DNA of 64,000 bases from Giardia intestinalis (taxonomy: Eukaryota): assembly GCA_000002435.2 (NCBI GenBank), contig CM018791.1; one strand, written 5' to 3'. Positions 10,451 through 30,300 of this stretch are shown one piece after another. Position 1 is the first letter of the stretch. Every line of letters begins with the position of its first letter. The position numbers were made by a program, and so were the translations under genes. The notes beneath the pieces were generated by a model. That model did no database searches, was not told where the DNA came from, and saw only the letters and a list, made by a program, of their open reading frames with translations.

Positions 10451-12358
10451 ATGAACGACATCTTCACCGTGATCGTTGATAAGCGTCTTATTCAGGCTGT
10501 GGAGTATGTAAAGCATCGTGCTGGCAGTCGGCCGGAGGAGATCTGGAAAAACGTGGCACGGTATATGAACGGACTTACTCCTGAACAATGTAGCGAACGG
10601 TATAATTACCTAGTGACCGAGAAGCAGTATGCACCACTTGACTATCGTCCAAAGGTGCCTATGCCCGACGAAGAGCTTCAAGTGACCATCATCGACGGGG
10701 ACAAGAAGGAGACGATGAGTATTCCCAGGGCCTTGTTAGTCAATAACATGGCCTACTTCAGAAACATCCTGGCTAACAAGGAATCTACTGCGATTGACCT
10801 GTCCATTCATTCGGATATTTGCATTTTCAAGTGGCTCATGGAGCACTGCTACCACCTATACCAGCCCTCTGACTATCCCCCTGTTTCACTGACAATCAGA
10901 ATTGTCTTTCCGGTGTTAGTGTCAGCTCATTTTCTTGGGATGCCCAACCTAGTCAACGATTGTATTCTATTTATGCTCAAGGGATCCAATTTCACACAGA
11001 TTCTTTCGTTCAATTATAATTTCTCCTGCATGGATACAGACTTGCTTAAGCGGTTCCTGGAACACGTCCCCCTGCCTATCTTCATTAGATATCTTGGAGC
11101 TAATCATAGCAATTACCTCATCACAAAGTTAGCAAACGCATCCAGTCACTCGCTCCTGCACAAGTTCTCTGATAAGATTCTGTTCTGCGACCAGTGCGGA
11201 CACTTTTGTCTTCAGGAGATACTAGATTCTTCAACTATCTCTAAGCTCTACCCCAACAGTACTTTTCTCAATTGCGTCAATGGATGCTCTAGGATTGATA
11301 GTAGGGGACGGATGACTAGCAACCACAACTTTCGCGTTTGCAAGAAACTCAGCAAAACGATTCAAAAGCACCTAGCCGACATTAAGATATACCCTAAGTT
11401 GACCAGCGTGCACATTTATTGGGCCCTATTTGGCCTATTATTCTGGTGTACATGTGCCAAATGCGAGCAGGTGTTTCCTCTTCAGGATCTCTGTAAGTGT
11501 GAGGCAAGCGGCGGTCAGCACACCAATCATGAGATTGACAAGGTTATTGTTGCCCCAGCAGATACGGATCTTAGATTAACCATCAAAGAAGACCTGTTTG
11601 ATCTCAATAAGAATATCTGGAACAATCTCTCTATTAAGTCTAAGCTTCTTAACATTCTAGATGTCCCCGTTATTCATAACATGATCACGCTAGGGCCTGC
11701 GTGTGGTAATTTTTCAGCAGTTTCGGTAGCTAGGTCTGGGCAAGAATCCAGCACTGCCCCACGAAAGAAAGCTAACATTCCCATTCACGCTGCTGTATCA
11801 GAGGACTCTGTATCAGAAGAGCAGACTCCAGCCGTTAATTTACACACGCCAACACAAGCGAGACCCAGGCAGGAACTTTCAACAAGGAGTACTGTCGATA
11901 CCAAGACAAGAAGGTTAAGCTTTCAGTTGAGGGCACAAAAAGGAGCCGTACAGGAGCCTAATGTTGTCAAACCTAGAGCTCAGCAGTCCGAGCCGCCCCT
12001 AAAGGCACCAGATCCAGACCTATCTTCTGACAGTCAAGATTCCAATGACTGCAGTGAGTTACAAACTCGAATATTTACCCATACAGCAGACGATGACGCA
12101 GTTGGGGTTAAAGGCAAGGCTACAGCAAAGGGGCTTCCCGAGAGATGCAAGCGTTATCTGAAGTTAAAAAGTAGCATGACTGACGAGCAGCGCAAAACAG
12201 TCCTCAATGGCATTGCACACGAAGAAGATGTTTCTAAACTGCGAGCACTGAATTCAGTCTTGATTACTGCCAGAGAAAATGACATAATCAAAAAGGCCCG
12301 CTACGCCTTCGAGAGCATTCCGTTTCCCACATATAATCTCCAGTCACGCGGGAAGTGA
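10451..12358 (+). CDS. Hypothetical protein (635 aa) with an N-terminal Myb/SANT-like segment and a BTB/POZ-like segment, followed by a Ser/Pro-rich region
   Basis: EEIWKNVARYMNGLTPEQCSERYNYL resembles a Myb/SANT helix-turn-helix. VTIIDGDKKETMSIPRALLVNNMAYFRNIL...IDLSIHSDICIFKWLMEHCY resembles the BTB core. Both calls are by eye only. Confidence 0.45.
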   Translation: MNDIFTVIVDKRLIQAVEYVKHRAGSRPEEIWKNVARYMNGLTPEQCSERYNYLVTEKQYAPLDYRPKVPMPDEELQVTIIDGDKKETMSIPRALLVNNMAYFRNILANKESTAIDLSIHSDICIFKWLMEHCYHLYQPSDYPPVSLTIRIVFPVLVSAHFLGMPNLVNDCILFMLKGSNFTQILSFNYNFSCMDTDLLKRFLEHVPLPIFIRYLGANHSNYLITKLANASSHSLLHKFSDKILFCDQCGHFCLQEILDSSTISKLYPNSTFLNCVNGCSRIDSRGRMTSNHNFRVCKKLSKTIQKHLADIKIYPKLTSVHIYWALFGLLFWCTCAKCEQVFPLQDLCKCEASGGQHTNHEIDKVIVAPADTDLRLTIKEDLFDLNKNIWNNLSIKSKLLNILDVPVIHNMITLGPACGNFSAVSVARSGQESSTAPRKKANIPIHAAVSEDSVSEEQTPAVNLHTPTQARPRQELSTRSTVDTKTRRLSFQLRAQKGAVQEPNVVKPRAQQSEPPLKAPDPDLSSDSQDSNDCSELQTRIFTHTADDDAVGVKGKATAKGLPERCKRYLKLKSSMTDEQRKTVLNGIAHEEDVSKLRALNSVLITARENDIIKKARYAFESIPFPTYNLQSRGK

Positions 12359-12378: not shown

Positions 12379-13350
12379 TTACTCATCTTCATCTGTAGCG
12401 CCGCCCTGATCTTCTGCTTCACGCTTACTTGCTTTAGCTCTTCGTTCTCGATTACGAGGCTTCCCTGTCCCTGTTTCAGGCTTTGTCTCTGACTTATGAT
12501 AGCAATGACCAGTTCCCGCTATTAAGCAACGGTTGCACTCGGGGAAGCTTGCCTTGCAGACGGTTTGTCCAAAGCCGACAAGCAGATGGTTAATATCTCG
12601 CCACTTGTCCTTTGGCAAGGTCTCGACTAGCTGCTTGGCCACATCATCTGGATTTAGCATCTTCCCGTTAGGCTCACACATTCCTTTTTCGACCCATCTC
12701 AGCCTCTGCGCTATGCGGCACACGTGCGTATCCACTGCTATTCCCTCGACTTGGCCATAGACGATCTGAACCAACAAGTGCCCCATTTTTGGTCCAAAGC
12801 CGGGGAGCTTTAGAATACCCGCGAGGTCCTTGGGAATATCGCCCCCATAGTTGTCTAGGCATATCTGAGCAACGTTCTTCATGTACTCTGCCTTTCTTCG
12901 ACAGAAGCCCACTGGATGGATTATCCTCCCCAACTCATCTAGTCCAGAGTCCACCACGTTCTTCGCTGTCAGCCTCCACGCATCAAGCTTCATTAGGTTG
13001 TCAATATCGATAGGAAAGTTCTTCTTGAGCATGGCTTCTGCTTTGGTGGACTTCTGCAGCCCCTTCGTCTTTTCTTCAAACTCTGCCTCGAGCTTCTTTA
13101 AACGCTCTTTGTCAAGGCCGTCAGGGGGCACTGGAAGCATATGATTAAGTTTGTACATGGCGGCAGCGGTTACTCTATCCAGATTTCTGGCAGACAGGAG
13201 AAGGCCTATGGCAAAGCGGAAGCGACCATCTGGAGTTTCTGTTGTATCCGAGAGCATGTGCGCCCCGAATACATCGACGGGGCAGACATACTCTGCCCGC
13301 ATTGTCTCTATTTTCTCCCATGTATCCTCAAGATCCGGGATCGGAGCCAT
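12379..13350 (-). CDS. NTH1: Endonuclease III (Nth) homologue, HhH-GPD DNA glycosylase with a [4Fe-4S] cluster loop
   Basis: HhH-GPD elements LPGFGPKMGHLL and VDTHVCRIAQRL (catalytic Asp). C-terminal CKASFPECNRCLIAGTGHC Cys ladder. ATG confirmed (cat at 13348-13350) with AT-rich upstream on the minus strand. Confidence 0.8.
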   Translation of the reverse strand: MAPIPDLEDTWEKIETMRAEYVCPVDVFGAHMLSDTTETPDGRFRFAIGLLLSARNLDRVTAAAMYKLNHMLPVPPDGLDKERLKKLEAEFEEKTKGLQKSTKAEAMLKKNFPIDIDNLMKLDAWRLTAKNVVDSGLDELGRIIHPVGFCRRKAEYMKNVAQICLDNYGGDIPKDLAGILKLPGFGPKMGHLLVQIVYGQVEGIAVDTHVCRIAQRLRWVEKGMCEPNGKMLNPDDVAKQLVETLPKDKWRDINHLLVGFGQTVCKASFPECNRCLIAGTGHCYHKSETKPETGTGKPRNRERRAKASKREAEDQGGATDEDE

Positions 13351-13371
13351 TTAATTGTAGTATTTTTTGAA
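13351..13371. promoter_or_regulatory. 21-bp AT-rich bidirectional initiator between Nth (-) and the NTase gene (+)
   Basis: The sequence is ttaattgtagtattttttgaa, flanked by a start codon on each strand. Confidence 0.5.
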
Positions 13372-15327
13372 ATGAACGATTCTTCTCACGAAGCCCTTTG
13401 TCCAGAGTGCCGCGGACGGTATGGCTTCTCGTCGCTGGCAACACACCTATGTTTGGAACATGGGTTTTGTCCTTTTTGTCCCTCTGAAAAGTACATCACA
13501 GAAGATTTGTATCCTGAGTTAATTTGCACACGGAAAGAGCTGGTGGGTCGGCTAGCCCAGGTCTATCGGAAGGTAGCCAGTGACCTTCTTGCGCCACGGG
13601 AGACTGGCTTTTCTCTTGAAGCCTGTAGCTCAATCTATTCGACATATATAGCGTCGTTCTCTCTCCTACGCAAATTTCCTTACGGCCTTTCACCTCCTGT
13701 TGCAATGCTTGTGCATCTTATCATTGAGCATCCAGCAGTAGGATATAGGTTATTGTGCTCATTGAGTGGTGCTGAATCCCTGACAGCAATTTATGCCCTT
13801 GCTTCTTACAGCGAGCTGGTGCCACAAGAAGATGCTCAACTTTGTCCTGATTGCTTTCTCTTTTACACTGACCCAGCCAATCACCACAGTCAGTGTAAGA
13901 GATACTATAGATATCATTTTAAGCATCACCTTCACTATCAGGGCTGTCTAACAGATTGCTTAGCAGGCTCCATGTCATCTGCATATGCGTCAGCTAGGAC
14001 GATCATTGGCCAGTACTTTTGTCCAGAGAGTTTAAAGAACAATCTACACTGTGCTCGATACTATATGAATCTATATGCACCAGTTAGCTCTACTACAGCC
14101 AAGAGTGTGGAGGACAGCCTACGGGGCTATCTTACCCGCTACCCCGTATTCACATCCCTTAGTTACCCAGACAAGGCATACAAAGTCAAGTCTTTCGAGC
14201 TCCAGGGCTCGTACGCTTTTGGCAAGGCCACCATTTACTCAGATATAGACTTTCACCTCGTTATTCTAAAGCTTGAGGGTGTGGAAATGAATGACTTGAC
14301 TTCTGAGGACACAAAAGACTGCTTGTCCTCTCTGATCAGGCACCTACAGGCACCCTCGGCAGGTGAGTGGCTGAGCCAGTTCTCGATGGATAAACCAATT
14401 AAGTATTGCAGGGGTACTACAGGGTTCATAGAGTTTTCACTTAAGAATGCAACGCAATCTGTTAGCCTAGTATTTGGCAGCCAACACCATCTATCTGCTG
14501 GACGGCGGCGACTTGCAATTATGCGGTCCTTTTATCTCGACAAGCTCGCCATCTATGAACGTGCAGAGGGGTTCCTAAAGCAGTGGTTGTTTATGAGTAG
14601 GACAACCGAGGGTAGCACTGCAATGGGCCTCACAAAGTTTGCATCACTGACCATCTTGCAGCGCGTGTGCCTTTTTACTGATGCTGGCAGTCTTCTCCGG
14701 CGGTTCATTTGCTATGATTCAAGTGAAACCTACGAGGCCATGCTAGATCCGCCTTCTGTTGACAGTGTAACTTTTAGCGAGTCGCTGACTCTTTATCAAT
14801 ACGACTATAATGTACGCGGCATAGAAAAAACTATTAACCTTGCTGGATTGCATCCAAACCCCGAGTTAGTTGATCCAGCAAAATTCAAACAACTAGCGAT
14901 TGACCACTGTGCTGACAATAGATCAAAACGTGATATTCTTGACGCCATATTGCAGTTAGCAGATACTCCTGAGGAGATCTCGTTCATCTGGGCCTTTACT
15001 CTCATCCACGAGGTATTGCGCTACCACCGAGACTTCTATCAGCAGACACTTAGATGTAAGTTGAGCTCCGATCAAGAAATGTCAACAACGAATGTTCTGT
15101 ACAGTCTGCGTGATTTATTGAGCATCTCTAATGACTTGGAGCCCATTTCCACGGAAACGCGTACGTGTGTATCTGCACACGTGACAAAAACCATGACATT
15201 AGCCTGTGCATTTAGAATACTCTTAACCGTGGAAACAAGCATGCTGTTTTTGCGATACTTTCTACCCACCCCTCCGCACTGCAGCACAGCAGATCGCGAA
15301 GTTCTTCATAAACTCATTGCAATCTAA
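13372..15327 (+). CDS. Cid1/Gld2-type (Pol-beta-like) nucleotidyltransferase candidate with an N-terminal C2H2-like zinc finger (651 aa from the ATG at 13372)
   Basis: CPEC-x12-HLCLEH is a C2H2 pattern at 13399-13465. GSYAFGKATIYSDIDFHLVIL at 14206-14256 matches the NTase hG[GS]x9SDxD signature (compare Cid1 GSLESGLALKNSDMDL). The ORF-track start at 13141 overlaps the Nth gene by 210 bp. The in-frame ATG at 13372 has a classic AT-rich initiator (gtagtattttttgaaATGaac) and removes the overlap. Confidence 0.55.
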   Translation: MNDSSHEALCPECRGRYGFSSLATHLCLEHGFCPFCPSEKYITEDLYPELICTRKELVGRLAQVYRKVASDLLAPRETGFSLEACSSIYSTYIASFSLLRKFPYGLSPPVAMLVHLIIEHPAVGYRLLCSLSGAESLTAIYALASYSELVPQEDAQLCPDCFLFYTDPANHHSQCKRYYRYHFKHHLHYQGCLTDCLAGSMSSAYASARTIIGQYFCPESLKNNLHCARYYMNLYAPVSSTTAKSVEDSLRGYLTRYPVFTSLSYPDKAYKVKSFELQGSYAFGKATIYSDIDFHLVILKLEGVEMNDLTSEDTKDCLSSLIRHLQAPSAGEWLSQFSMDKPIKYCRGTTGFIEFSLKNATQSVSLVFGSQHHLSAGRRRLAIMRSFYLDKLAIYERAEGFLKQWLFMSRTTEGSTAMGLTKFASLTILQRVCLFTDAGSLLRRFICYDSSETYEAMLDPPSVDSVTFSESLTLYQYDYNVRGIEKTINLAGLHPNPELVDPAKFKQLAIDHCADNRSKRDILDAILQLADTPEEISFIWAFTLIHEVLRYHRDFYQQTLRCKLSSDQEMSTTNVLYSLRDLLSISNDLEPISTETRTCVSAHVTKTMTLACAFRILLTVETSMLFLRYFLPTPPHCSTADREVLHKLIAI

Positions 15328-15328
15328 G

Positions 15329-18300
15329 CTAAATAAATCTTACCCCAAAGAAAGGATTATGCTCTAGCCATTCCTCGCTACTGATGCTTGTTTTGTTGGG
15401 CAAGTAGACTACGGGCTGGATGCGTCCTCCTATTTTGATAGGTACGGGGACCATGTTGGCAGGAACCCGTAGATACGTGTGCCTGTGGCTGCCCGCTATT
15501 GATGTCTGTCTGGTTGTTGTGTTGTTGGTAACTACGCAGTAGGCGTACAGCTCTAAGCAGTTATTATATCCATGCGCTCTTTCGACAGTGTCAGCGCAGA
15601 CAGTTTCTAACACGGCGTCATATGATATCCTGAAGAGCTCAAGATTTCTGAGAACCACGTAGAAAGGACATTGATTTTGGCGGTCTGTGCCCTTGGTCTC
15701 AGTGTCTATGGTGCCATCCTCACGAATCTGCGGCATGTAGCTGGGCTTTTTAATGCTTACGACAATCCTTTGCCTGTTAATGGGGGTCGATGTAAGGACA
15801 GCCGAGTGCATTCGAACAAAGTTGAGTATGTCTCCGAGAATCGGGCCATATGTGCTAACGTTGATGATCCAGTGCGTGGGGAATGAACCAAATCCTACGT
15901 TCCCATCGACAGTGAACATATCTGGAAGACCCACGTTAGGGATAATGTGCTTAAGGATGTACATAGACGAAAGGTTCCTGCTAGGAGATCCGAACGGGAT
16001 ACGCTTGAAGTCCTCGTGTGCCATAACATAGGTCCTTAGGGCAGATGTCATTTTGCTGAGGTCCGTCTTACGGGCAGCATTGACTATTTTCATGGTAGAC
16101 GGAAAGTTTGGGTTAACAACTGTAGAAAGCGTGTTCAGCGTCGTGTTTGACGAGAAAAGGTGACGATAGTAGAACTCCTGAGGAAGGCTGTGTTGGGCAG
16201 CAGAAACCAGATATCTCTTCTGTCGTGAGATTTGCAGGTCACTGGTTTCCTCAGTGCTGTAAGCGTATAAGCGTAGTTGTTGTACAAGGTCCAGTAAGTC
16301 AGAAATGTCATTATAAAACGGAAGAATGTCCAGCCATTCCGTAAATTTTCCTGCACGAGTCGTCCCAGAAGCGCGTTCTGCGGCAAGATTTGGAATGGTA
16401 ACGGTGTTAAGAGAGCGGTGCTCAATCTCTACCAGTTTGCGGACAGTTCCTTCTATTTTCTTAGTGTCGATGGGGCGTTCATCAGTAAGGTCTCCAGCGG
16501 CAATTTGAATTGTGACCAGCAAGTTTTCATAGATATCGTCCTCTTCACACCGAGCAGCCGACTGTACCCCTTGATTGTTGCGCAGAATGCTGGTTCCCCG
16601 AGAGCGAGTAGTAATACTAGACCCTCGTGAGGATAAGTTGTCACTTCCAGCTATAGACTCCCCATCGTCAAAACCGACAAAGTCTCCCTCTCGACCGTCT
16701 CCGTCCATTCCAGTAAGCTGCGTTGAGGCCTTACTGCTTTCTAGCGAAAGGGTAGACTCTGTAATGGAAGTGCTCGAGGAGAGCTCATCTTCCTCGCTGT
16801 CAGAACTTCCTGCAAGGCGCAACTTCTTCTTCGCTGCCTTTTGTGCTTTTGCGCGCATAGTTTCCTTCAGTAGTCGCATGACAACCTCATCATGTACCTG
16901 TTGCTCGGAGACAACCAGCCTGGTTGGTATTATCTTTGATAAGGCCTCAAGCTGGCCAAAGTTGAGACTGTAAATTACTTTCGCGACGCGCTTATATTGT
17001 TTGGAGTCTACTCGATTCATGAGGATTGCACTGTTGTCTCTCAAGAGCGTGAGATTGACGAATGCGCAGCTCTTGAAGGACGTTTTGTCATACTTTTGCA
17101 CTTGCTTGGTTACAGCCCGCAATAGCACCTTTTTGAGCTTGTAAAAGAGCCTTGTATCGTCCATAAATATAGTAGATTGATAACTCAAGAACGAGTGCTT
17201 TAGAGCCAAAAGAACAATCCCACGCATAGTTATAGGGGGCTGGAAGTTTGGAACAGCTTCCAAGTCTATCACTTTAAAGCAAATCATAATGAGCAACGTG
17301 ATGCCGACCATACAAAGATTGAGATAGTGAACAAATGCCTTGCTCAGTGTGCCAGGATGCTGTATGTAGATGTAGTTTGGAACAGTCAGGATTGATATCT
17401 CATATAAAAGACTAGTGAAGTGTTCTGAGTCGAGATGAGTCAGTGCTGGTGAGCTGCTGTGGTTTGCGTTCAGGGCGGAGGGAAACAGAGAAGAAGATGG
17501 TACGAAGATGAAAATAGGGTATGTGATGTCGTATTTTCGTATACTCAGCTTCTGTCTCAAGATGTTGATGACATCTTGGAGCAGAGCCGCCCCACCTAGA
17601 GCAGGGTCTGCCACGGCAACGGTGATTGATTCTATTATATCTTGGAAGGAAAGGTGCTTAGCAAAGTTAGCCCGTACGGTTCTATACGGGTTACTTGGAA
17701 GCAGGTGGATAAACGTGAAGACATGGTCAATGGAGATGATTTTGTCAAAGAATATCAGAGTGACCTGTATGGGCGACGGCCCCATGGCCATGATGTGCTG
17801 CATCTTCTTGTCCTTTAGAATTTGCGGATCGGCATCAATCTCCTGCACCTTGGCATTATATCGCTCAAGGACCCTAAACGAGAAAGTATACGCATCGTAA
17901 AGCTGCATGACGCAATCTGATGCTAAGTCGGGTGGCATCTCTATGTCCTTTCCGACGCTTGTCTTTGTAGGGAGTCCAACAAATGTGAGCAGGTTCCGGA
18001 ACGATAGGCCCATGGCTTGCAGATATGTCTGGACTAACTCCCCGCGCTCTGCAGCCGATGATATCTTCATATCACTTCTGAAATGGCCAGTTAGCCCTTT
18101 TGGTGCGTTAACCGACATCGTCGCAGAAAGCTGCCAAGCGCTGGGTCCACAACGCTTTTCCAGCATCACAGCCATCGCTTCAAAGGTGTCAATGATGAGC
18201 TCAGGCTTCAAGGCATTGGACAGGGAGAAGATAGCAAAGAAGGATTGGCTGTCCTGCTTAGCTAGCATAGGCGGCAGTTTGAACACCTGGTAATTAGATG

Positions 18301-21300
18301 CCATGGCATCCTGCATCAGCGATGAGTACCACTGCTGCAGTGCAGTCTTCTTTTCTGTGTCCTTTGCTCCCTTTATCGTTAATTCGGTAGAGTGCTGTCC
18401 TGCTGCCATATTAGCTCTGGCGTAAAAGGCTAATACAGAGGCGAAGGGCTGCTCACACCTAGAGAAACAAACAAAGGCAGCGTGATGCTTTAGAAACCAT
18501 GTCAGAGAATTGGCTATCACAGGATTGTACCTTCCCAACAGACAGAAGAAGATCCAGGACATAACAACCTTAGGAGACATGGAGGTAACTTCCGGTATTA
18601 GATGCTTGATATTATTCAGCACGTCTGCATCAGCGTTGTCTGCATCTATCTTCGTCAAGGCAAATTTGCTCTTCATATAAAACGCCCCCATAATTTGCTG
18701 GGTTGTGAGAAGTCTCGTAATATCTTTTATGGATGAACGAAGAACAGCAAACAAAGATAGAGCTGGAGCTGTCACGTTTTCCATGAGGGGGTTGATAGAA
18801 TAGGGCCGTTCCTTGCTTATTCCACTCAAGTCTCCAATTGCCGTAGAAAAGAGAATATGTATCAAGTGCCATATCCCAGCAGAAAGCTCTGGAGGGAAGA
18901 CGTTGATAAGCCGGGCCTCTAGAGTCGGAATCATCACAGACATAAGGAAGTTCTTGAGCGTCCCAGGATCATATCTTATACAGAACGCTAGGATATTCTC
19001 GTCCTGCATGCTTACAAGGCCGTTCTGAAGCATATATTCCTCTGAGAAATCATGCTGGAACCGAGGGTCTTTAGCATACTTTTCTTTGAGGTGTCCCTGA
19101 AACGAGGACACGGCCTTGACTAGAGTAATCTTGAAGATAATGAAAAAGTCTCGAGAATACCCTATGAGGGCAGGGAGATGGTAGGCCGAGATCTTTCTCA
19201 AGTAGTAGATAATGGCATTGACAGCAAGCGCTATATCGTCGCAAAGAGCCTGTCCATACGTATTCACGATATCGAATATAGCACAGCGAATGTTGACTGG
19301 CGTGTCAACTAGCTTGTACTCCTTCTCCTTGTCCTTTGATAACATGCTGCAGCGCTCCTGCTGAAGAAGAATCAGCCCCTTTAGTGCGGACAAAAGCTGA
19401 CTAACCTCGGTCTTCCTTGACGAAGAAGCGTGGAGCACAAAGCTAGCTGCAAAGCAAACATGCTGTATACTATCCGAAGACCCTGTTAGTTGCGTAACCA
19501 TTTGGTTCATAGCAGCTTGCTCCATCTCTCGCTTGGCCACAGTGGGATCAGCTGAACGAATAAATGAAGTACCCATCTGGGACACCTTGTCGGTGGACAG
19601 ACTCAGGACATGTACCATGAGATAGCTCTTAACCTGGTCGCTAGCGAGGTTGATCATGCGTGAGAAGCGCACATTATTCAAGCGATACCGCTCGTTACGG
19701 CTACGAATTCCCTCTGATTCTCCAAAGATCGACTCCAGAAAGATCTGGGACATGATGTGCTTTTGGCTTTGAAGTAACATCATTTCAGTATCTGCAAGTG
19801 CTACCCTGTTTGGTGATGAGTAATGTGTACAGACGGCAATGGTGTTGATGAAGTGTTGAGTGAAGAGCCCTGCGTTTATCAGCACGTCGCCCAGACTCAT
19901 CCCCTGGCTCAGAGCAAAGATGATGGTGTACTTGTGAAGTGCCTGGGCAGTTATAGCTGTCACCGACCCGATGGCAATGGTTTGTCGCTTCCCAATGGTC
20001 TTTCGCGATCGCAGGACCATGAACTTTCTTAGGGTAGTATAGTTGCTTGTATCCGTATTACGAGATTCCATGTTAATGAATAGGAATGTGTACTCTCCAG
20101 TGCTCAGACCTCTGGCAAGGGTTGCGCTGAATTCACGCGGTGGGATGCGCATGTCTATCACCAGAACGCGCTTCTGCAGATCAGCAAGGAGGTTTGTCAC
20201 ATCGTTCAGACGAGGATTTGTTGGATTCATCCCATGAACAATTACACTGGCCACTTGCTCATAATACAAAGTCCCTTGGGCTTCTTGTTTCTTGCATGCT
20301 TCCAAGAAGCACGCCGCCGCTACCCCTAACGTCTCATCAACACAAAAGACCGTGCTTCCAGTAATGTACCGTATAGCAACAGAGTAGAGTCCAAGCATAG
20401 CAGGATCTCCCATGGACCATGGGATGCGGAAGCCCTTGAGAAGCATTAGGATCGGCCAGTCAGCTCCGAGAAGTTCCACTAAGTGACCCATAAAGGCAAA
20501 CTGTCCATACTGAAGAGTGGCGTTGCATATCATCGTCGGCGAATTTTCGTTGAAATCGACTTTCTTGGCCTCTGGGTCCGGGAAATCCACACTGAATCCA
20601 AGGCTGCTGTAAAGCGCCACTATCATGACATTGAAGCAAGAGATATTTGCGGTTGTGGAGCTTTGATCAAGTAACTTAAGCAATTTCATGGGTATATCTC
20701 CAAAGACACCACCAAGTAAGGCATCTCTAGCGGTTCCTTCCGTAACCAATCCAGGTATCGAGAAAAGAAGCGAGGCTGCAATGGCCACAGAGTCTAACGC
20801 AGCAGAGCGTGCTGCTGCCGCCATTATGCGGAAGTCAGTCTTCAAGGCGTCTATGCAGGTATGGATTAAATCTCGCATCACAACAGCTTCTGCTATGGCA
20901 GTAAGTAAGTCTCGCTGACGCTTACTTGCTGAATCGCTATTCTTATCGTCCTGGGAAACCTGTGCCTTGACAGCTTGGTCAATGGTCTTCGCAACCGAGT
21001 CTGGAGATAGCTCTGTGACGTCAATGGTCTTTGGCTTTGTTTTGCTAGGCGACGCTAAGGCTTCATACAATCTCAATGCGATGAAAAGCGTATTTAGAAT
21101 GGACATGAAGTCAGCAACCTTTAATAAGATAGTGTTACAGATTTGAGAAGCGAGATGTGTGAAGACAGACATCGAGGGGCATGCATTGATGCTGTTTGTG
21201 CTACAAAAGCGATAGACACCAACAGATGCCACCATGAATGTGTGATGGAAAAGTGGCCAGTCCACACTGACTTTGGTTGGGAGAACAACTTCCGTTGGAA

Positions 21301-24300
21301 GTTTGCAGTCAGAGAGTTGAAAAAGTGAGAACAGGTCGAGCTTGTCCATGGCCACAATGTTAACATTGCATTCGTGCAGTCTCTTCTGGAGCATTATCTC
21401 GAGGAAGTTCTTCATCTGTACTGGGGCATCTGGCACCTGCGGTCGGACCAGCGTGAGCTTACTGTCAGTCTTTTCTGCCATCTTCGCTTGTGCCTGCGCA
21501 GCATCTTCCAGCTTTTTAGTTGCTCTACTTAGACGCATCTCCTTGTGCAGGTCAACGAGATTGGTTACTAATTCTAAGATGGGAGACTTGACACTGCCCA
21601 GCACCTTTGCACGCATGCACTCGCTAGACGATACTACCATAATGTCTTTAGAAAAGATCTTATCGGCACAGTTGAGGGGGAAATCATCGATGATCACAAC
21701 GCTAAGAGTGAGTGATAGGATTGAGACTAGAACGCGTGAATCTGCCACGATATCCAAACCTAAACCAAATGTCGCGAGATTACAAAGACACTGGATCTCT
21801 TCTTCGTCAAAGATGGACTGAAGAATGTTCAGGGGCTCGAGGCTCCGGCAAAGAAGTGAGTAGGCCGTGACCCCCGTTGGGGACGTCCTCATTAGGGTGG
21901 ACATTGGGGTCATGATTAGGACATTCATAGGACTGTGAAGTAGACACTTACTCATGATGGTATCTCGTGTTACCTGCTTGTTAGCGTCGTGGCCTTGAGG
22001 AGCAACATCCACCTCGTCCAAATTGACATGATCTTCTAAAAGCAGTTTGGAGTACTGTTCTATCTTTATCAGGTATTCGGACCAGGACATGACTGCAAAA
22101 GGTAGCTGAGAAATACCCCGTCCTGTACCAATCACGCGGCTAGGAAGCGAGGTAGTTAGAGCCGAGTTGACGCTGAAACCCAGGTTGAGAAGCGACGGAG
22201 AAACAGTGTTTGCTGAGGACTTTGCAGTCAAGAGTATTTCTGGCTTTATTCCTAACGCCATGGCAAAAGACACTCGCAAAATCATGATGAGCGCCAGAAA
22301 ATCTAGTGTGTCGCTGTTGTACAGGCTCGTGCTTTGTAGCTCTGCAATCATCTTTTTAAGGTTGTCGATCAGGTCCAGGTTTTCTTTTGGCTCTTTTCGG
22401 TCCCCTCTAGGCGGTCGCTTAGTCCGTAGCACAGTTTGTCCGTCCAGATGACTCAGGATTGTTGTTACGTCGATTAAAATCCTCTGTTGGCTCGATTTTT
22501 TGCCAGTTTCTGAGAGCCCGACGGCCGATGTAGCTGCCGACATGCTGGAAAGCTTACTCCTGCTACTCCCCTTTGAAATCTCAGATTGCGCGTCATCAGG
22601 ATCCTCGTCCGCGGCAGCCCTGTTCATCTCTGTAAGCGTCTGCTTGAACCTATCAGAGCTGAGAATAGTATAGTTCCCTAGAGCAGCAAACAGTCTAACA
22701 AGCTGATTGTAGGAGTTGCTTGGGGCGTTATCAATACGAATGATGGCCTTGTTAGGCTTCATGGAAAGCATAGTGAGCAGAGGGAACCCGTCAAACTGGG
22801 TTTGCTCATCGCCGTCTTCGTGCTCCTGCCGAGCTATATCTTCTGCGACCTTAACTTCGTTCTCAAGAGAATCAACAACCTCTGTGATGACCTCTCTATC
22901 TTCTTGACTCATATCTGAAGAGTAAAGAGAAGCTGCTATCTGCTGAGGATCAGTCAGGATGTCGGTTGCCGAGGAGTCCTTCGGGACCCCAGTTGTTGCT
23001 ACCTTCGTATACGCTAGAATGCGTGCAGCATAAATACTGGCATGCTTGAGAATCTGCAGCCTAGTAGGAAATATCGGATCCTCGCCATAGAGGGAGCTCA
23101 TACTTCCCCCGCTTCTGATGCTAATACCATACGTTAGGAGGCAATTAAGTTTTGCAAGGTTGAGCTCCCTGCGCGTAGCTATAACAAGAAATGCTTCTAG
23201 TGCGCGACACGTGATAAACGGATCTAGGTCTTGGCCGTAAAGCTTAACCATGGACATGAGATGCACAAACCAAAAAGGATTGGTGCTCCGATAGTTGAGG
23301 CTTAAGAACGACGACCTATCAACTAGAGTCTTGAAGAGATTGACCGGGGAATCCCTCAGGTCTACCTCTGTGACGTGATGAGATATCAGCGTATTAATCA
23401 TGTATTGATTTCCGAGTCTGAATGTAGAGGCTTGGGCATCTGCAATGTCAGACTTGGTGCTTTTCGTGGTGATCTGTATGTTTGCCGTGTCTAAAGTTTT
23501 ATTAGTTGCAGTTTGCTGCATTCCGGTGCCTGTTTGAGTGCCGCCTTGCTCACGCCTAGCTGTCATGTAGTTAATAGACTGGTTCAATACATACCGCTCC
23601 CACGCCGTGACAAGGATGAAGTTTCCCTTGACTAAAAGTCGTGCGTCACTCCACGGTGTAGTAGAGCTAGCTTGTGATTTCTGGGCCAGCTGCTGTTTGT
23701 GCAGAGCAGTCAGTTGGTCCTCACCACTGTTGTCTGCCTCATCATCCAAATATCCTAAAATACTTAGGCTTGCAAACCGCTCTATAATTCCCTGTAGGAC
23801 AACGAGATTTGTCTCCGAAAGATTGCGGAGGGCACCAAATAAGGAATGGATATTGGCATTAGATAGCTCCCTATCCCTGTTAGCTTTAATAATACTCGTG
23901 ATAGAGTCGGGCGGAAGTCGTCCAGGGTGTTTCCCCATGGTCTGGTACGCCTCTATTGTTGCGAGCATGTCATCGCTGATGTCAGCAGGGTCCTTCATCA
24001 AAAAGGAGTTGTAGTTCTTCAGCCTGTCAAACACTGTGAAGCTATTGATAAGCCCCACCGGGAGAGACCCTTTAATAAGGAAGTATCCATTAATAAACTG
24101 GAAAATCCACGATTCGGTATGGTGAGGATACACCTTCAGGAATAGACTGCGAAGGAAGGGCTCTGTAAGCGGCGGCATTTTAATTGTCAAGGCGGCATTC
24201 TGGGCAATCTCAGTATTGAATCTATCACACTCGATAATGAAGCTACAGTCGGATAACGATGCACACCCAGTTTTAAAGCTTTGAAGTGTTTCTGGGTAGA

Positions 24301-27300
24301 TAGAGTTGGGTAGGATCACAGATGAAGGCATTTGGCTGTATGATTTGCGAAGCACCACGTCCTTTTCAGCAACATCCATCAGAATGACATGGTCCCTTAG
24401 TAGAAGTGCGATGTGCTCGGAGATTTCTGCACTCCGACAGTCTGAACAGTGCAAGTGGAAAGAAGGGAAACTCAAAGAGCTGTAGTAGTCAAGTATCATA
24501 TTGCTGTCTTCGTCATGGATAGCCGCTGTAGTGCTGCTATGCCTGTTTGCGGATGACTGTGCTGCTCTGCGAAGAGTGAACTTCTGTGCAATACCAGTAA
24601 GCACAGAAAACGTTGAGGAGTCGCTATGCAAATCAGACAGTAAAATCATGTTTGTATCGACCATATCCCGAACCAGAATCTTGGCAGCATCCAAGATAGT
24701 TGTCTTCCCAGATCCCCGCTCCCCCACAAGGGCCAGAGAAATAGGACTGAGCATAGCACACCCAAGGACCACCAAAATGGCTGCCCTATGGGAGTCAAAA
24801 TAAATGGGACTGTCCAACAGCGAGTGAAGACTGGGTCTTTCCCCTCTGTCCTTATCGAGAATGATTTCATTAATATCACTTTTCTCTCGCTTCTGCTGTC
24901 GCTTTGCAGCCATTCCGCGTGCAAGGTCGTCATCGTCGTCGCCCGATTCGCCTTTTGCTTCGTTAGCCTGCTCCTCGGTGTCCTTATTAAGTCGTGCCTC
25001 ATATGCCTGCTTTCTTCGTAGACACAACGTTTTTTCTGCGATATACAAAATGTTCTTCTCTAAGGACACCTTATCAGCATCAAGGATAACATTATTGAGC
25101 AGGCCCTCTCCTACCTTATATGTGCGGAACTCGACGCGGGCATGGAAGTGATTGTAATGTTTAGACTTCTTCTCCTTATTGATGCCGAACTTGTAATCGA
25201 GGTAACTAAACGTGTCACCGGACATATACTTTGGCACGATATGAGTGACCTCTTGCATGGTATTTCGAATTCCGGTCATAAGCTGCTCGTTTGTAAGTCC
25301 GTGGTTGAGTTTGGCCAAGGAGAGTTTTTGGGAGACAGTGTAACTAGCCAAGCACTCCCTCTTCAAAGATGGAAGAGATTGATCTGCTTCTGATAAAATC
25401 AAAACTATGGCGGCTATCATTGAGCAAAATGTGCCGTGGCTGACTTTCTGTAATTCAGAAAGCTCAGCTATGACTTTCGTATATCTTTTCAATAGCAAAT
25501 CGTGTGCTGTCTTTGGTCCCTGTGCTAAGAGGCGCTCCCAGTTGCTACTTGCAGTGAATGTGAGATAAAAAAGAGAGCATGCATTCCAGATTGCGCAGAA
25601 AAATGGGGTGCATATGTTAATGAACGCAGTCATGTGCTTCTTTGGATGGAAAAACGCCTCGTTGAGATACTTTTCTGTGAATCCAAAGGATAGACTGCCT
25701 TGGAAGCCTATTCCGAAAGGTATTATATCGTTTTCTGCATTAAGAAGAACAGTGTGGTTGATTATTTCAGAAACGTTAGCTGAATTGCCAGCTTCTGCCG
25801 TCAACTTCTTCATTTGAGCCTCCAGACTCATTAGGGTGTTCTTTGAAAAGCCGGCAACCTCTGAAAAAGGGTACAGATCATCAGACACCCGAACACGCGA
25901 CTGCATAAGGTTTCCTAGTACAAATAGCTGCTTCCGCTTCACCTGTAGAACATTAGCATCAGACGACAGGTGGCCGACATATGTATTCTCAGATTTGTGC
26001 TTCCCGGCCTTCTGTGATTTCTCATGCATCTGAGTGGTGGTAAGATACTGGGCTCCGAGAATTCTTGTCATAGCGTTAATATCGCGTCCTCTTTGACCCA
26101 TAGCAACCTCAGATATGCGCTGGACACAAGCAGATGCCGTGTTTTGATCAAATTTATCACTTACTGTGCAGATCTCTTTGAGGAAGTCATTTTGCAATCT
26201 GCGCTTTCTTGGTGTAACAACTCCATTACGACAGAGGTTGAAGTAGATGATAGACCGCAAGAGATACACCTCCTCTATACTTCTCCCGTAGCCAAATATC
26301 TTTGTAATGACGTCGTAATAGAAGGATATCACCCCCTTCACAAAGGTGGGAAGTGCAGAGATGCGCTTTTCTGCTGTTATCAAGAGCCGGTCCTTGAGCG
26401 AGCTGTGGAGTAAGATCGACCTATAGTTGGTCACAACACTTTCTAGAGCACACGAAAGCGGACTGGCTGGATCATCCCCGTATTGATTCACGTGTTCCAT
26501 ACCCTCCAGTGCGGCGTCCAAATCGCGTTTCCAAAGCATGTGGTTACGGTGCACAAGACTGAGGAGCTGCGCTTCTTCAATATGCAGGCTGCCCTGGCAT
26601 ATCTTTTTAGACCCGTCTGCGCCCTCGATGGACGGAAGCAAAATCAGACGGTGGCATATTGATTTGATAAGCGGATAACCAATTATGTCCGGGAGGAAAC
26701 TAGGACTGAAAACAATAAGGTAATGTGGTCCGTGTGTTACATCAATCTGGATTTGTGACAGGTTCTTGTCGTCTGTTAGGACAGGGAATCCAAGGGATAC
26801 ACTGATAATTATTTCAAACATCTGAAGGAATGCACTGACATTGGATGGTGCGATGACGATCAGGTGCTCCTGAACGGGTTTGTCGTTTGCAATGCTATCG
26901 CTGAGATCGATTGCCTGGATGGCTTTATGTGCGCTATAAACAGACGTGGCGTTGAAGCAATAGTGCATACGCCAGCCGCGCACAGCAGCAAGGATACTAG
27001 CAAAGGTTTTGAGGTAAGAGATTTGCGGAACAACCACCAAGACTGGCTTGTATGACCGCAAAAGGTCGTTACAAAACAGAACGTCATAGACTGTTTGGAG
27101 GGAAAGCTGATGTGCTTGCGAGAACATGTTAATATACCACTGAAATTGCTGGGACAAGTAGCGCGAAAGACTATCTGTGTAATACTTTAGAAAACTCACC
27201 TGCTTGATTGGCGCATTCTTAGCTTTGTCCATTTCATAAGTATCTCCAGTTTCTGCATACTTCAGTCCCAGATGAACCCGAGCAGACTCAACGGTCCCTA

Positions 27301-30300
27301 GGAAATTGCGAGCCAGGCGGCCTATGTGCATTGAGTTCATCTTGTCGAGGCCAAATGCTGCGCATACAAACTGTGAATAGACAGTGGTCAATGACCTTAG
27401 CTCATGCCGCGTGGCCTTCAGTGAGAGAAAGCTTCCTGTCTGTCGCAGGATATAGTCAAGTGTCACTGCTGCAACACAAGATGTGTCGGACTTATCTTTG
27501 GCGCGGCTATAGATCATCTGGACATCGGAAGCTAGCAATCTACAAGAAAGAGGACCCATGGAGGCCAGGAAGTTATTGAGTTCGCAAAATGTGTGATAAT
27601 ACTCCGGTGATACCTTCTTAAATGATGACTCGGGCTGGTCAAATTCCAAGTATACGAGCTCTGAATGCTTAAACGCATTGATGCAGCTCTTTCCATGCTC
27701 TGTAAGGTGGTATACCGCTGCATAATTGTCCTGGACCTTGCTCAGTTCTTCGCCGCCAGACTGAGGTCCAGGATCAGTTGTTGATGTTTGGCTCTCTGGA
27801 TTTGCTTCATGCTCCTCCTTTTGGGCAAAGAAAAATTTGTCAGCTGTGATAATGGGTGCGAGCTCGGGAAGATGGAAGATCAGCAAGCCGTGATCCGAGA
27901 AGTCTGAGAAGTCCGCAATCTTAACTGTGACCCTGGATTGTATGTAGTTTAGTTCAGGACTGCCAAAGAACAGCTTGCTTTTTATGGCCTTCTTCTTCTC
28001 AGCAGCGCTTATTTCATGGGTAACGCAAAGCGTTTCGAGGGGACCGGCCTTTCTGCGCAAGCTATGCGATAGTTCTACCAGCTCCAGGATCTGCGGTGTT
28101 GGCAAGTACTGCAACCCGAATACGAGAACCACATATCCGGCGCAAAGACAGGCGGTGATCCGCTGCAAACACTTCACAAACGTGAACTCTGCAACGCAGA
28201 CACATACCAGTCGTCGACCAAGTAGGTGGCACGTGTGCAGAACCAATTTCGTTGGCTCTTGGGTATAGATGGACCGAGTAGCTGCTGTTAGAAGGAATAC
28301 TGGAAGACCCATGGAAAATCCATTAACTATCGACGTCGCAGCATACCTATATTGTAAAGGAATGGCTGAAATAATGTCCAACGGAGTCGGGGCACCGATC
28401 CAGTGAGGCCCGTATGTAATTAGAAACTCACTGAGTGACGATGTGACATACAGATCATGGGTTGTAGGGTTGTAGACGGTGAAGGTGATGCTATTATTCA
28501 TTGAGAGTATCCTGTTTAGGTCATCGCCGCGGAGGATCTTCTTTAGGTCTTGGAGGTACTCGCACCAATCAGCCATGTGCTGAATAAATACCTTTACATA
28601 TATAGGATTCTTTTGCATGCTATTGATCTTCACCGCGAGTATAAGGTTTTGGAAAAAGTCAAGAAGTTCTGCCAGATCATTATATGTGGGGTTTTTAACA
28701 AGCGCGAATCTGAAGAGTAAGCTGCGGGTCTTCTCTAGCAACCAGGTGGATATTGCTATGATAACTGCGCGAAACAGGTTGGTCTTAAGATAGTTGGAGA
28801 ACCCATCTGGATCTCTGATCATCGGCGAGGAGGCCAACTTCTGCTTATTTCTTTCTAACTCCTCGTTGATAGGTGCACTTTTGGTCACAGATGATGCTGA
28901 TTGACTGACCGACTGTGCCATCTGCTCCAGGTGTAAATAGGTAAAAAACCCTTCCGGAGGTGCTTCACCATGGAGCCCCTTGCCCGTAAACTTCATGTAA
29001 GCCACTGCAAATTCATCCCACGCTTTCTTAACAGCATCCACAAAAGATGCACGGGTTTCTGCGGCTACAGCGTCTGGTACAAGATAAATGACATTGGGTG
29101 CCTCAACAGGAGTGGTGAACATTAAGCTTTCGTCACCAGATCGTATGCCATTTATGATGGAGCCACGAATAGACGACGAGTCAATAAGATACTCGTCCAT
29201 TCCGTGAAAAACCTCATAACTCAGAGAAGTAACCAGCTTGAAAAGGCTCTTTTTTAGTGGAAAACAGCCACAAAACACCTGGCACACAGACGAGCAGAAA
29301 AGTGCGGAAGGAAAATTCTTCCCGTTGCTCCAGGGAATGAACTTCCGTGGGCCAATGGAAAGAGTCTCCGGGTCGGATGTCTTTACTGAGTAGTATGGAG
29401 AGAAGGTGGTCGTAGTCGAGCTTTTAGTAGCCAGGTCTTGAAACGACTGCAGAATGGCGAAATCTTGGTAGAAGTGAATGCGCTTATGAATAGCATCGAC
29501 CTCAAGCATGTGCTTAGAGAGGGTCTTGAGAACGTTCATGTTAATAACTATACAGAGGAAGGGCACAGACGTGCTCATAGAACGTGCCGTAGAGATATTT
29601 CTTAGAATTCGTGCTCCAAGGGACTTTTTCTTCATAATCTCCTCTACAGAGCAATACTTCGTGATCACGTCTCTCCAGGCGGCACATGCAGCCTGAAGCG
29701 TTGTGATATCTTGCTTTGACAGTATGTTGACAGTAAAGGCTTTCCTCCCCTGTTCTGTCTTTAGCCTTGTAGCCAGTTTTGCCCGTTCTGCCTCTGTGAG
29801 TTCTGCTCCTCCAAAACGCTTGGCCAACTGGTTGGGCGAGGGAGACGCATCACCTGGTGCTGCCACGTCCTTGATAATCTTCTTATGATAGTTGGTGAAG
29901 AGAGTTTCTTGGGGGCCCGTGAAATTGATCAGGTTGGCGTTGGCCTGGTAGGTGAGGAGATCTTGTAGCACAAATGGCATGCGCTTAAATATCGTAATGA
30001 GAAAGAGCATTAGCTGTGCCAATGCCTCGAGATCGCGTGCATACTCCTCTACATTCTGCGTGTATCGCCATTGCTGGAGATATTGTCGATGTGCGTCAAA
30101 GGCCTCAGACAAGTAGCGTGCAGTCAGGATGGTGCTCTTACTGGCCACATATGCCAGGTTAATGTCGAAGGATTGAGTATAGTCTATGTATCGTGTCCCA
30201 ACGTATCCAAGATTATTTAGCACAAGGGAAATCGTTACTAAGGCCTCTCTGCATATCTCTTCCGCGTTGGCGGGCGTGATAATGGCAAAGTCTATGGCAT

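What the first reader, a model, noticed from the sequence alone, without database searches (positions are those of the whole stretch)
13372..15327. C2H2 zinc finger fused to a Cid1/Gld2-type nucleotidyltransferase: candidate non-canonical poly(A) polymerase or terminal uridylyltransferase
The NTase signature GS-x9-SDID-FHLVIL is strong. An N-terminal CxxC-x12-HxxxxH finger precedes it. A zinc finger plus an NTase is the Star-PAP/TUT1 (U6 TUTase) style of architecture. Giardia RNA 3'-end metabolism is poorly characterised, so this is a plausible RNA-tailing enzyme.
Basis: partly seen in the sequence, partly recalled or inferred. Interest (0 to 1): 0.5.

Follow-up and report, generated by a model that had tools for sequence, protein, structure and literature searches.

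The report
Giardia-only zinc-finger nucleotidyltransferase-fold protein
This is the Giardia gene GL50803_17094, an unstudied protein found only in Giardia that joins cysteine/histidine zinc-finger-like motifs to a nucleotide-transferring enzyme core resembling RNA-tailing enzymes, but it cannot be placed in the Cid1/Gld2 family and may not be catalytically complete.

Summary
The ORF and both motifs are real. Window 13372..15327 (+) encodes the 651-aa 'hypothetical protein' GL50803_17094 of Giardia intestinalis WB. It is under purifying selection and has orthologues only in the G. duodenalis complex (58-97% identity). G279-S280-x10-D291-I-D293 and seven N-terminal Cys/His residues are invariant.

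Family membership is not shown:
- Pfam gives only a sub-threshold NTP_transf_2 hit and no PAP-associated or central domain.
- Profile-profile comparison with a Cid1 family alignment matches only the 45-column motif block (probability 6-13%).
- No acidic residue on the three strands that should carry the third catalytic carboxylate is invariant. The canonical position is Ser/Val, and E354 and D340 are Gln and Asn in one lineage.

Best reading: a lineage-restricted, highly divergent NTase-fold protein that probably acts on RNA, either as a tailing enzyme or as a nucleotide-binding pseudoenzyme. Modest interest.

The parts
13351..13371 (.). 21-bp AT-rich divergent intergenic region between the EndoIII-like gene (-) and this gene (+). 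Presumed shared Giardia-type initiator/promoter.
   Evidence: Sequence read, ORF limits. The same 22-bp spacing occurs in the orthologous locus L001. Promoter function is inferred, not tested.
13372..15327 (+). CDS of GL50803_17094 (651 aa plus TAA stop), annotated 'hypothetical protein'.
   Evidence: Orthologues are 58-97% identical over 100% of the length. pN/pS is 0.25/0.74.
13399..13479 (+). Zinc-finger-like module 1, residues 10-36: C10-x2-C13-x11-H25-x-C27-x2-H30-x2-C33-x2-C36, with all seven ligand candidates invariant.
   Evidence: Pfam gives only sub-threshold hits: zf-Di19 E 0.024 and Zn_Ribbon_TF E 0.0074. Metal binding is inferred.
13705..13764 (+). Conserved block MLVHLIIEHPAVGYRLLCSL (residues 112-131) with invariant H115-x4-H120. 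It repeats the HLxxEH spacing of finger 1 and may supply ligands for C33/C36.
   Evidence: 14 of 20 residues are invariant; H115 and H120 are invariant. The ligand role is speculation.
13843..13935 (+). Zinc-finger-like module 2, residues 158-188: C158-x2-C161-x9-H171-x3-C175 (C2HC), followed by invariant H182, H185 and H188.
   Evidence: No Pfam hit.
14092..14499 (+). Pol-beta-type nucleotidyltransferase palm, residues 241-376: helix, strand b1, GS loop, strand b2 (DxD), helix, then three meander strands.
14197..14256 (+). Catalytic-site signature ELQGSYAFGKATIYSDIDFH (residues 276-295): hG[GS] plus DhDh.
   Evidence: 14 of 20 residues are invariant. hhalign to the Cid1 family motif block scores 30.7 against 16.6 +/- 3.2 in column shuffles, with 0 of 150 reaching the real score.
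14380..14478 (+). Strands b3-b5 (residues 337-369), where the third catalytic carboxylate is expected. Candidates are D340 and E354; the canonical strand 363-369 (SVSLVFG) has none.
   Evidence: Column contents are. E354Q and D340N occur in all four cluster-3 sequences. The greedy hhalign run places Cid1 D160 opposite V367, and my manual register places it opposite S365.
14500..14709 (+). Most conserved part of the protein, residues 377-446, predicted helical. The motif FLKQWLFMSRTTEGSTAMGLTKFASLTILQRVCLF is reminiscent of the K-x-W...G-x-L-S-S-Y helix pair that begins the PAP/OAS substrate-binding (fingers) domain.
   Evidence: 66% of columns are invariant, and 18 of 20 in residues 397-416. 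The resemblance is only a collinear low-confidence hhalign alignment (P 0.07 alone). The AF2 pLDDT is below 50 here.
14872..15324 (+). Conserved C-terminal helical region, residues 501-651, including SFIWAFTLIHEVLRYHRDFY and LLTVETSMLFLRYFLPTPPH. No detectable relatives.
   Evidence: No Pfam or PDB sequence hit. Low pLDDT.

Best explanation
GL50803_17094 is a fast-evolving protein restricted to the Giardia duodenalis complex.

Proposed domain layout:
- An N-terminal region of about 230 residues carries two or three zinc-binding Cys/His modules.
- Residues 241-376 form a Pol-beta-superfamily nucleotidyltransferase palm that keeps an intact hG[GS] plus DxD site for Mg-NTP binding.
- The C-terminal half is helical and strongly conserved. 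It probably plays the part of the 'fingers'/substrate-binding domain.

Proposed mechanism (all steps inferred, none shown):
1. The zinc modules and the C-terminal domain hold an RNA.
2. The GS loop and D291/D293 bind the triphosphate and metal of an NTP.
3. The protein adds untemplated nucleotides to an RNA 3' end, in the manner of TUT1 and other TENT enzymes.

The usual third carboxylate is not conserved. Activity may therefore be weak, may depend on a relocated residue (E354), or may be lost in some lineages. In the last case the protein would act as an NTP-binding RNA-binding scaffold.

It is a separate orphan family inside the NTase superfamily, not a demonstrable member of the Cid1/Gld2 family.
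For: - Motifs: present, invariant and unlikely by chance.
- Model: two AF2 runs give a confident (pLDDT 70-89) helix-strand-GS-strand(DxD)-helix-three-strand core at residues 241-376. This matches the five-stranded, two-helix palm described for TUT1 (PMC5467268).
- Foldseek: the top 30 hits are almost all OAS or TENT enzymes. OAS1 is at 2.7e-4, URT1 at 4.8e-3, TUT7 at 1.1e-2, Cid1 at 1.4e-2 and Trf4 at 1.8e-2.
- Profile comparison: the hhalign match to the Cid1 catalytic motif block exceeds all 150 column-shuffle controls.
- Conservation: the GS...DxD block is the best conserved part of the core.
- Selection and synteny: the gene is under purifying selection and syntenic across Giardia lineages.
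- Architecture precedent: zinc finger plus NTase is a recurrent design among RNA-acting NTase-fold proteins such as TUT1 (PMC5467268). My own knowledge adds TUT4/7, trypanosome RET1 and ZFR.
Against: - Sequence profiles: no match reaches a curated threshold. NTP_transf_2 scores 16-18 bits against a cut-off of 21.
- Missing domains: no PAP_assoc or central-domain hit.
- Family profile: hhalign probability to the Cid1 family is 6-13%, and only 45 columns are aligned.
- Third carboxylate: no invariant acidic residue lies on strands b3-b5. E354 and D340 are replaced by Gln and Asn in one lineage.
- Model coverage: about 80% of the protein is modelled with pLDDT below 50, from an alignment of only six close sequences.
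- No RRM or other known RNA-binding domain was found.
- No experimental or literature data exist for this gene.
Confidence: 0.45

Rival explanations
1. It is a pseudo-nucleotidyltransferase: an NTase-fold scaffold that has lost polymerase chemistry. It would work as a zinc-finger RNA- or protein-binding adaptor that may still bind a nucleotide. Known parallels are the N-terminal Lin28-interacting module of TUT4/7 (C2H2 finger plus inactive NTase domain), the DZF proteins NF45/NF90/ZFR, Utp22/NOL6 and MiD49/51.
For: - No acidic residue on strands b3-b5 is invariant. The canonical position is Ser or Val. E354Q and D340N are fixed in all four sequences of one lineage, although that lineage's gene is otherwise intact.
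- The strongest conservation lies outside the catalytic core, at 397-438, 537-556 and 617-636.
Against: - Known pseudo-NTases have usually also lost the GS and DxD residues (my own knowledge). Here G279, S280, D291 and D293 and their surroundings are invariant, and they form the best conserved block of the core.
- That pattern argues for continued selection on a metal-nucleotide site.
- No DZF or other pseudo-NTase Pfam family is hit.
Confidence: 0.3
2. It is an OAS/cGAS/CD-NTase-like signalling synthase. On binding a nucleic-acid or other ligand through its zinc modules, it would make 2'-5' oligonucleotides or cyclic nucleotides rather than extend RNA 3' ends.
For: - The single best Foldseek hit is OAS1 bound to dsRNA (E 2.7e-4), and OAS3 and the 1px5 OAS1 entry are also listed.
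Against: - No OAS1_C, Mab-21 or CD-NTase profile hit appears at E<=10.
- These enzymes also need the third carboxylate, which is not conserved here.
- No downstream effector or pathway of this kind is known in Giardia (my own knowledge).
- The score differences from TENTs are within noise.
Confidence: 0.08
3. The NTase resemblance is a coincidence. A short GS...DxD pattern would have induced AlphaFold to draw an NTase-like alpha/beta unit, and the protein would be a Giardia-specific zinc-binding helical protein with an unrelated function.
For: - All sequence-profile evidence is below threshold.
- The motif alone occurs in about 1% of shuffles.
- The alignment behind the model has only six close sequences (Neff 1.6).
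- An exhaustive HMMER search of 1.84 billion representatives finds no relative outside Giardia.
Against: - The motif sits precisely on the predicted strand-loop-strand elements where the fold requires it.
- Two independent model runs agree, with pLDDT up to 89.
- The hhalign motif-block score beats 150 of 150 shuffles.
- The motif residues are invariant.
Confidence: 0.12

Closest known systems
Human TUT1 / Star-PAP (U6 snRNA terminal uridylyltransferase; PDB 8idf, 9j8p, 5wu1)
   Same: - Its N-terminal zinc finger precedes a Pol-beta-type palm of five strands and two helices, followed by a helical fingers domain (PMC5467268).
- The GS and DxD residues are present in both.
   Different: - Identity is only 8-9%.
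- No RRM, proline-rich insert or KA-1 domain is detectable here.
- The TUT1 triad is D216/D218/D381, whereas the third carboxylate is not conserved here.
- TUT1 matches the Cid1 sequence directly (E 1e-17), while this protein matches no family profile.
- The finger here has an 11-residue spacer and extra Cys ligands.
Cid1 / Gld2 / TUT4-7 / URT1 / Trf4 family (TENTs; Pfam PF01909 + PF22600 + PF03828)
   Same: - Foldseek hits give E 5e-3 to 8e-2 over about 130-155 columns at 13-18% identity.
- The GS-x10-DxD block aligns to the family's catalytic block better than any of 150 shuffles.
- A low-confidence collinear alignment pairs FLKQW...GLTKF with VKHW...TLSSY.
   Different: - No PF03828 or PF22600 signal.
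- hhalign probability is 6-13%.
- Cid1 D160 aligns to Ser or Val.
- The C-terminal 270 residues have no counterpart.
- Giardia's own Trf4/5-like genes are GL50803_16285 and GL50803_11638 (PMC3282835).
TUT4 N-terminal Lin28-interacting module and DZF proteins (NF90/NF45/ZFR): zinc fingers plus catalytically dead NTase fold
   Same: - The architecture is also zinc finger(s) followed by an NTase-fold domain.
- The catalytic triad is incomplete.
   Different: Those domains have also lost the GS/DxD residues (my own knowledge). Here they are invariant. No DZF profile hit.
OAS1 / cGAS-DncV-like nucleotidyltransferases
   Different: There are no family profile hits, these enzymes also need a third carboxylate, and no such pathway is known in Giardia.

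Membership tests
Pol-beta-like nucleotidyltransferase fold superfamily | hG[GS] motif at the end of strand b1 | tested here: met
   L277-Q278-G279-S280 follows predicted strand 269-278 and is invariant in 6 of 6 orthologues.
Pol-beta-like nucleotidyltransferase fold superfamily | [DE]h[DE]h motif on strand b2, 9-13 residues after the GS motif | tested here: met
   D291-I-D293-F lies at the start of predicted strand 292-302, and D291 and D293 are invariant.
Pol-beta-like nucleotidyltransferase fold superfamily | Third carboxylate (h[DE]h) on the strand next to b2 | tested here: inconclusive
   The canonical last strand, 363-369 (SVSLVFG), has no acid. I353-E354-F355 on the preceding strand fits h[DE]h, but it is Gln in all four sequences of one lineage, and D340 is Asn there.
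Pol-beta-like nucleotidyltransferase fold superfamily | Alpha/beta palm fold | tested here: met
   [not shown]
Pol-beta-like nucleotidyltransferase fold superfamily | Pfam NTP_transf_2 (PF01909) hit above the gathering score | tested here: not met
   16.3 bits for the full protein and 18.1 bits for the fragment, against a cut-off of 21. Four of six orthologues give a sub-threshold hit.
Cid1/Gld2-type TENT (non-canonical PAP / TUTase) | PAP-associated domain (PF03828) and central domain (PF22600) after the palm | tested here: not met
   No hit at E<=10 for the full protein, six orthologues or fragments. All 120 listed Cid1 relatives carry PF03828.
Cid1/Gld2-type TENT (non-canonical PAP / TUTase) | Profile-level homology to the family across the catalytic module | tested here: not met
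   hhalign of A1 against the 34-sequence Cid1 alignment gives probability 5.7% over 45 columns. The greedy mode gives 13%. HMMER against PDB finds no TENT.
Cid1/Gld2-type TENT (non-canonical PAP / TUTase) | Catalytic triad DxD...D | tested here: not met
   Cid1 D160 aligns to V367 (hhalign) or S365 (manual register). No invariant acid lies on b3-b5.
Cid1/Gld2-type TENT (non-canonical PAP / TUTase) | Template-independent NMP addition to RNA 3' ends | not testable with these tools
   Needs a biochemical assay.
Star-PAP/TUT1 architecture | ZF + RRM + palm/fingers + KA-1 (PMC5467268) | tested here: not met
   A ZF-like motif and a palm are present. No RRM is detected by Pfam. The C-terminal domain is modelled at low confidence as helical, with no KA-1-like match.
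Classical C2H2 zinc finger | C-x2-4-C-x12-H-x3-5-H with conserved aromatic and Leu residues; Pfam zf-C2H2-type hit | tested here: inconclusive
   The observed pattern is C-x2-C-x3-Y-x4-L-x2-H-x4-H, so the spacer is 11. All ligands are invariant. The only Pfam hit of a C2H2-type family is sub-threshold: zf-Di19 at E 0.024, 15.3 bits against a cut-off of 27.5. AF2 confidence is low here.
OAS / cGAS / CD-NTase | Family profile hit (OAS1_C, Mab-21, CD-NTase) and a complete triad | tested here: not met
   No Pfam hit. There is structural similarity only.

The most novel reading that the evidence does not exclude
GL50803_17094 founds a previously unrecognised, Giardia-restricted family of active RNA terminal nucleotidyltransferases. 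In this reading the PAP-associated domain is replaced by a novel, highly conserved helical domain. Catalysis would proceed with two invariant carboxylates plus a relocated or dispensable third (E354). The zinc modules would direct the enzyme to a specific Giardia RNA class, for example U6-like snRNA or small RNAs.
Probability: 0.2. Interest if true: 0.55.

Novelty: new variant of a known kind. Interest (0 to 1): 0.33.

Why it matters
Giardia has a pared-down and poorly charted RNA-processing machinery. Only two Trf4/5-like non-canonical polymerases have been recognised there by sequence (PMC3282835). A third, lineage-specific NTase-fold protein with zinc fingers would be either an extra RNA-tailing activity or a regulatory pseudoenzyme unique to the parasite. 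Because it has no host homologue, it could serve as a selective handle. It would also show how far an NTase module can drift while keeping GS/DxD, including loss of the PAP-associated signature and a non-conserved third carboxylate. At present this is only a structural prediction for an uncharacterised gene that is already annotated, so the immediate impact is modest.

Tried and rejected
- **Word-indexed search** of 5.8 billion proteins: only five Giardia clusters.
- **Exhaustive HMMER profile search** of 1.84 billion representatives: only Giardia, plus one spurious hit to a 6455-aa repeat protein that shares a 33-residue AIDxCAxNRSK-like motif.
- **PDB sequence searches**, with single sequence, profile and mid-region fragment: only the motif-level ANT(4')-IIb hit at E 0.3.
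- **NCBIfam**: the ANT(4')-II motif only, 13.7 bits against a cut-off of 350.
- **Synteny hunt for more distant orthologues**, using EndoIII homologues: two diplomonad-like contigs (L002, L003) have unrelated neighbours.
- **Two metagenome scans** with patterns from the N-terminal and core blocks: nothing.
- **Trimmed AF2 run** (residues 232-651), intended to rescue the C-terminal domain: confidence was still below 50 outside the palm.
- **AFDB Foldseek library**: unavailable.
- **FAM46 link**: a paper appeared to list Giardia FAM46 proteins, but the organism is Guillardia theta, so it is not relevant.
- **Literature searches** for the gene identifiers: no papers.
- **Rfam and tandem-repeat scans** of the region: empty.
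Full report
**What is at the coordinates**

Window 13372..15327 (+) is an uninterrupted ORF of 651 codons plus TAA. A longer frame opens at ATG 13141, but the extension runs antisense through the divergent EndoIII-like gene at 12379..13350. All orthologues start at the Met equivalent to 13372. The current RefSeq model XP_001705758.2 is also 651 aa, replacing an older 728-aa model. The protein is identical to GL50803_17094 (GL50803_0017094), a 'hypothetical protein' of Giardia intestinalis WB.

The 21 bp between the two divergent start codons are AT-rich. Downstream, a convergent 7100-codon ORF ends one base after the stop codon. The same gene order occurs in the most distant orthologous locus recovered: BTB_SANBR protein, HhH-GPD glycosylase, this gene, then a large convergent gene (L001).

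Against that orthologue the gene shows pN 0.25 and pS 0.74. It is therefore a real coding gene under purifying selection, although it evolves quickly for Giardia, with 65% identity between assemblages A and B.

**The observation**

- *NTase signature.* It reads G279-S280-x9-S290-D291-I-D293-FHLVIL. G279, S280, D291 and D293 are invariant, and the 20-residue block around them is the best conserved part of the central region at 14 of 20. The pattern occurs in about 0.6-1.3% of shuffles of this protein and nowhere else in 23 kaa of long ORFs in the window.
- *N-terminal finger.* It is C10-x2-C13-x11-H25-x4-H30. The spacer is 11 residues, not 12. Three further invariant cysteines (C27, C33, C36) accompany it.

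The two Cys/His patterns together arise in 0.02% of shuffles. Pfam sees only sub-threshold zinc-binding matches: zf-Di19 at E 0.024 and the TFIIB zinc ribbon at E 0.0074.

**How far the family extends**

| Search | Result |
|---|---|
| Word-indexed search of 5.8 billion proteins | Five clusters, all Giardia (58-97% identity, full length) |
| Exhaustive HMMER profile search of 1.84 billion representatives | Nothing new except a chance match to a repeat protein |
| Two metagenome pattern scans | Nothing |
| Synteny walk from more distant EndoIII homologues | Unrelated neighbours |

With the data available, the family is confined to the G. duodenalis species complex.

**Fold**

AlphaFold2 had only six sequences to work with. 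It gives low overall confidence (mean pLDDT 40-44). In two independent runs, however, residues 241-376 are modelled at pLDDT 70-89.

The order of elements in that region is:
1. a helix
2. strand b1, ending in GS
3. a loop
4. strand b2, starting with DID
5. a helix
6. a three-strand meander

This is the five-strand, two-helix palm described for TUT1 and the Pol-beta family (PMC5467268).

| Method | Best matches |
|---|---|
| Foldseek vs PDB, trimmed model | OAS1 2.7e-4; URT1 4.8e-3; TUT7 1.1e-2; Cid1 1.4e-2; Trf4 1.8e-2 |

I take the NTase palm as well supported for a prediction. The lean towards the TENT/OAS branch is only suggestive.

**Family membership**

- Pfam gives only NTP_transf_2 at 16.3 bits (18.1 for the isolated region), against a gathering score of 21. 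It gives no PAP_assoc (PF03828) or MTPAP-like central domain (PF22600), even at E<=10. All 120 listed fungal Cid1 relatives carry PF03828, and nearly all also carry PF22600.
- I rebuilt a 34-sequence Cid1 family profile after verifying the Cid1 sequence against PDB. hhalign aligns only 45 columns around GS...DxD, at probability 5.7%.
- That block scores above all 150 column-shuffled controls: 30.7 against 16.6 +/- 3.2. The motif-level relationship is therefore real, but it says nothing beyond superfamily.
- A permissive alignment stays collinear and pairs FLKQW...GLTKF with the family's VKHW...TLSSY helices. Its probability is only 13%, and that region alone gives P 0.07.

**The third carboxylate**

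In Cid1 the third Asp (D160) sits on the last palm strand (CDIGF). The equivalent strand here is S363-V-S-L-V-F-G369. The permissive hhalign alignment puts D160 opposite V367, and my register, which matches the hydrophobic phase, puts it opposite S365. Neither residue is acidic.

The only acidic residues on the three strands are D340 and E354. E354 sits in I-E-F, a good h[DE]h match, 61 residues after D293. Both are replaced, by Asn and Gln respectively, in all four independently assembled sequences of one lineage. That lineage still keeps GS/DxD and an intact full-length ORF.

I could not read model coordinates, so I cannot say which strand abuts the DxD strand. The test is therefore inconclusive, leaning negative.

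**Where selection acts**

The most conserved segments are not in the palm:
- residues 397-416: 18 of 20 invariant
- residues 419-438
- residues 537-556
- residues 617-636

All four are predicted helical, are modelled at low confidence, and have no detectable relatives. Whatever the protein does depends heavily on this novel C-terminal half.

**Most likely mechanism**

*Shown:* a conserved, expressed-looking gene; invariant Cys/His clusters; an invariant GS/DxD site on a predicted NTase palm.

*Inferred:* the Cys/His clusters bind zinc and, together with the C-terminal domain, hold an RNA. The GS loop and D291/D293 bind Mg-NTP, and the protein adds untemplated nucleotides to a 3' end, as TUT1 does.

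I put about 0.45 on this reading, which includes weak or lineage-variable activity. The main rival, at 0.3, is an NTase-fold pseudoenzyme of the TUT4-LIM or DZF kind that keeps a nucleotide site. The non-conserved third carboxylate favours it, and the perfectly kept GS/DxD argues against it. An OAS/CD-NTase-like signalling synthase gets 0.08 and a coincidental motif gets 0.12.

**Comparison with known systems and novelty**

It works most like a zinc-finger-guided TENT such as TUT1. It is not demonstrably a member of the Cid1/Gld2 family or of the TUT1 architecture, since no RRM or KA-1 was found. Giardia's recognisable Trf4/5 homologues are different genes (PMC3282835 supplement), so ordinary Giardia divergence does not explain the missing signatures.

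No paper mentions the gene. I classify it as a new variant, an orphan family, within the known NTase superfamily. Interest is moderate to low: the fold call is plausible but ordinary, the gene is already annotated as hypothetical, and the function remains untested.

Noticed in passing
window 15329..36631 (-): A single 7100-codon ORF converges on this gene with one base between the two stop codons. Neither of its two parts (5000 aa and 2100 aa) has any Pfam hit at E<=0.001, so it is a giant orphan protein.
   Followed up: partly
window 13141..13371 (+): The in-frame upstream extension was used in the old 728-aa gene model XP_001705758.1. It overlaps the EndoIII-like gene on the other strand and is absent from all orthologues. 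It is an annotation artefact that is already corrected in the current RefSeq model.
   Followed up: yes
window 12379..13350 (-) and 10451..12358 (+): The neighbours are an HhH-GPD (endonuclease III-like) glycosylase, sharing a 21-bp divergent intergenic region with the gene, and a BTB_SANBR-domain protein. This gene order is kept in the most distant Giardia orthologous locus, L001.
   Followed up: partly
proteins P0138 and P0139 (cluster of P0005), equivalent to window residues 232-651: Two independent Logan assemblies of the most divergent lineage call a 423-aa product starting at the Met equivalent to M232, which lacks the whole zinc-finger half. I did not check whether this reflects an N-terminal disruption, a gene-calling choice or a real shorter isoform.
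   Followed up: no
P0006 (6455 aa, not in the window): This is the only non-Giardia hit of the exhaustive profile search. It is a repeat protein whose roughly 180-residue repeats each contain an F-x-x-x-AID-x-CA-x-NRSK motif similar to residues 505-520 (FKQLAIDHCADNRSKR). I judged it a chance short-motif match amplified by repetition.
   Followed up: partly
L002 (Logan SRR31929897 contig, 14.8 kb) and L003: These contigs come from unidentified organisms with compact, diplomonad-like gene spacing. They carry EndoIII homologues 46-50% identical to the Giardia protein. Their neighbours (kinesin, HECT, and orphan 735-aa and 543-aa proteins) are unrelated to GL50803_17094.
   Followed up: partly
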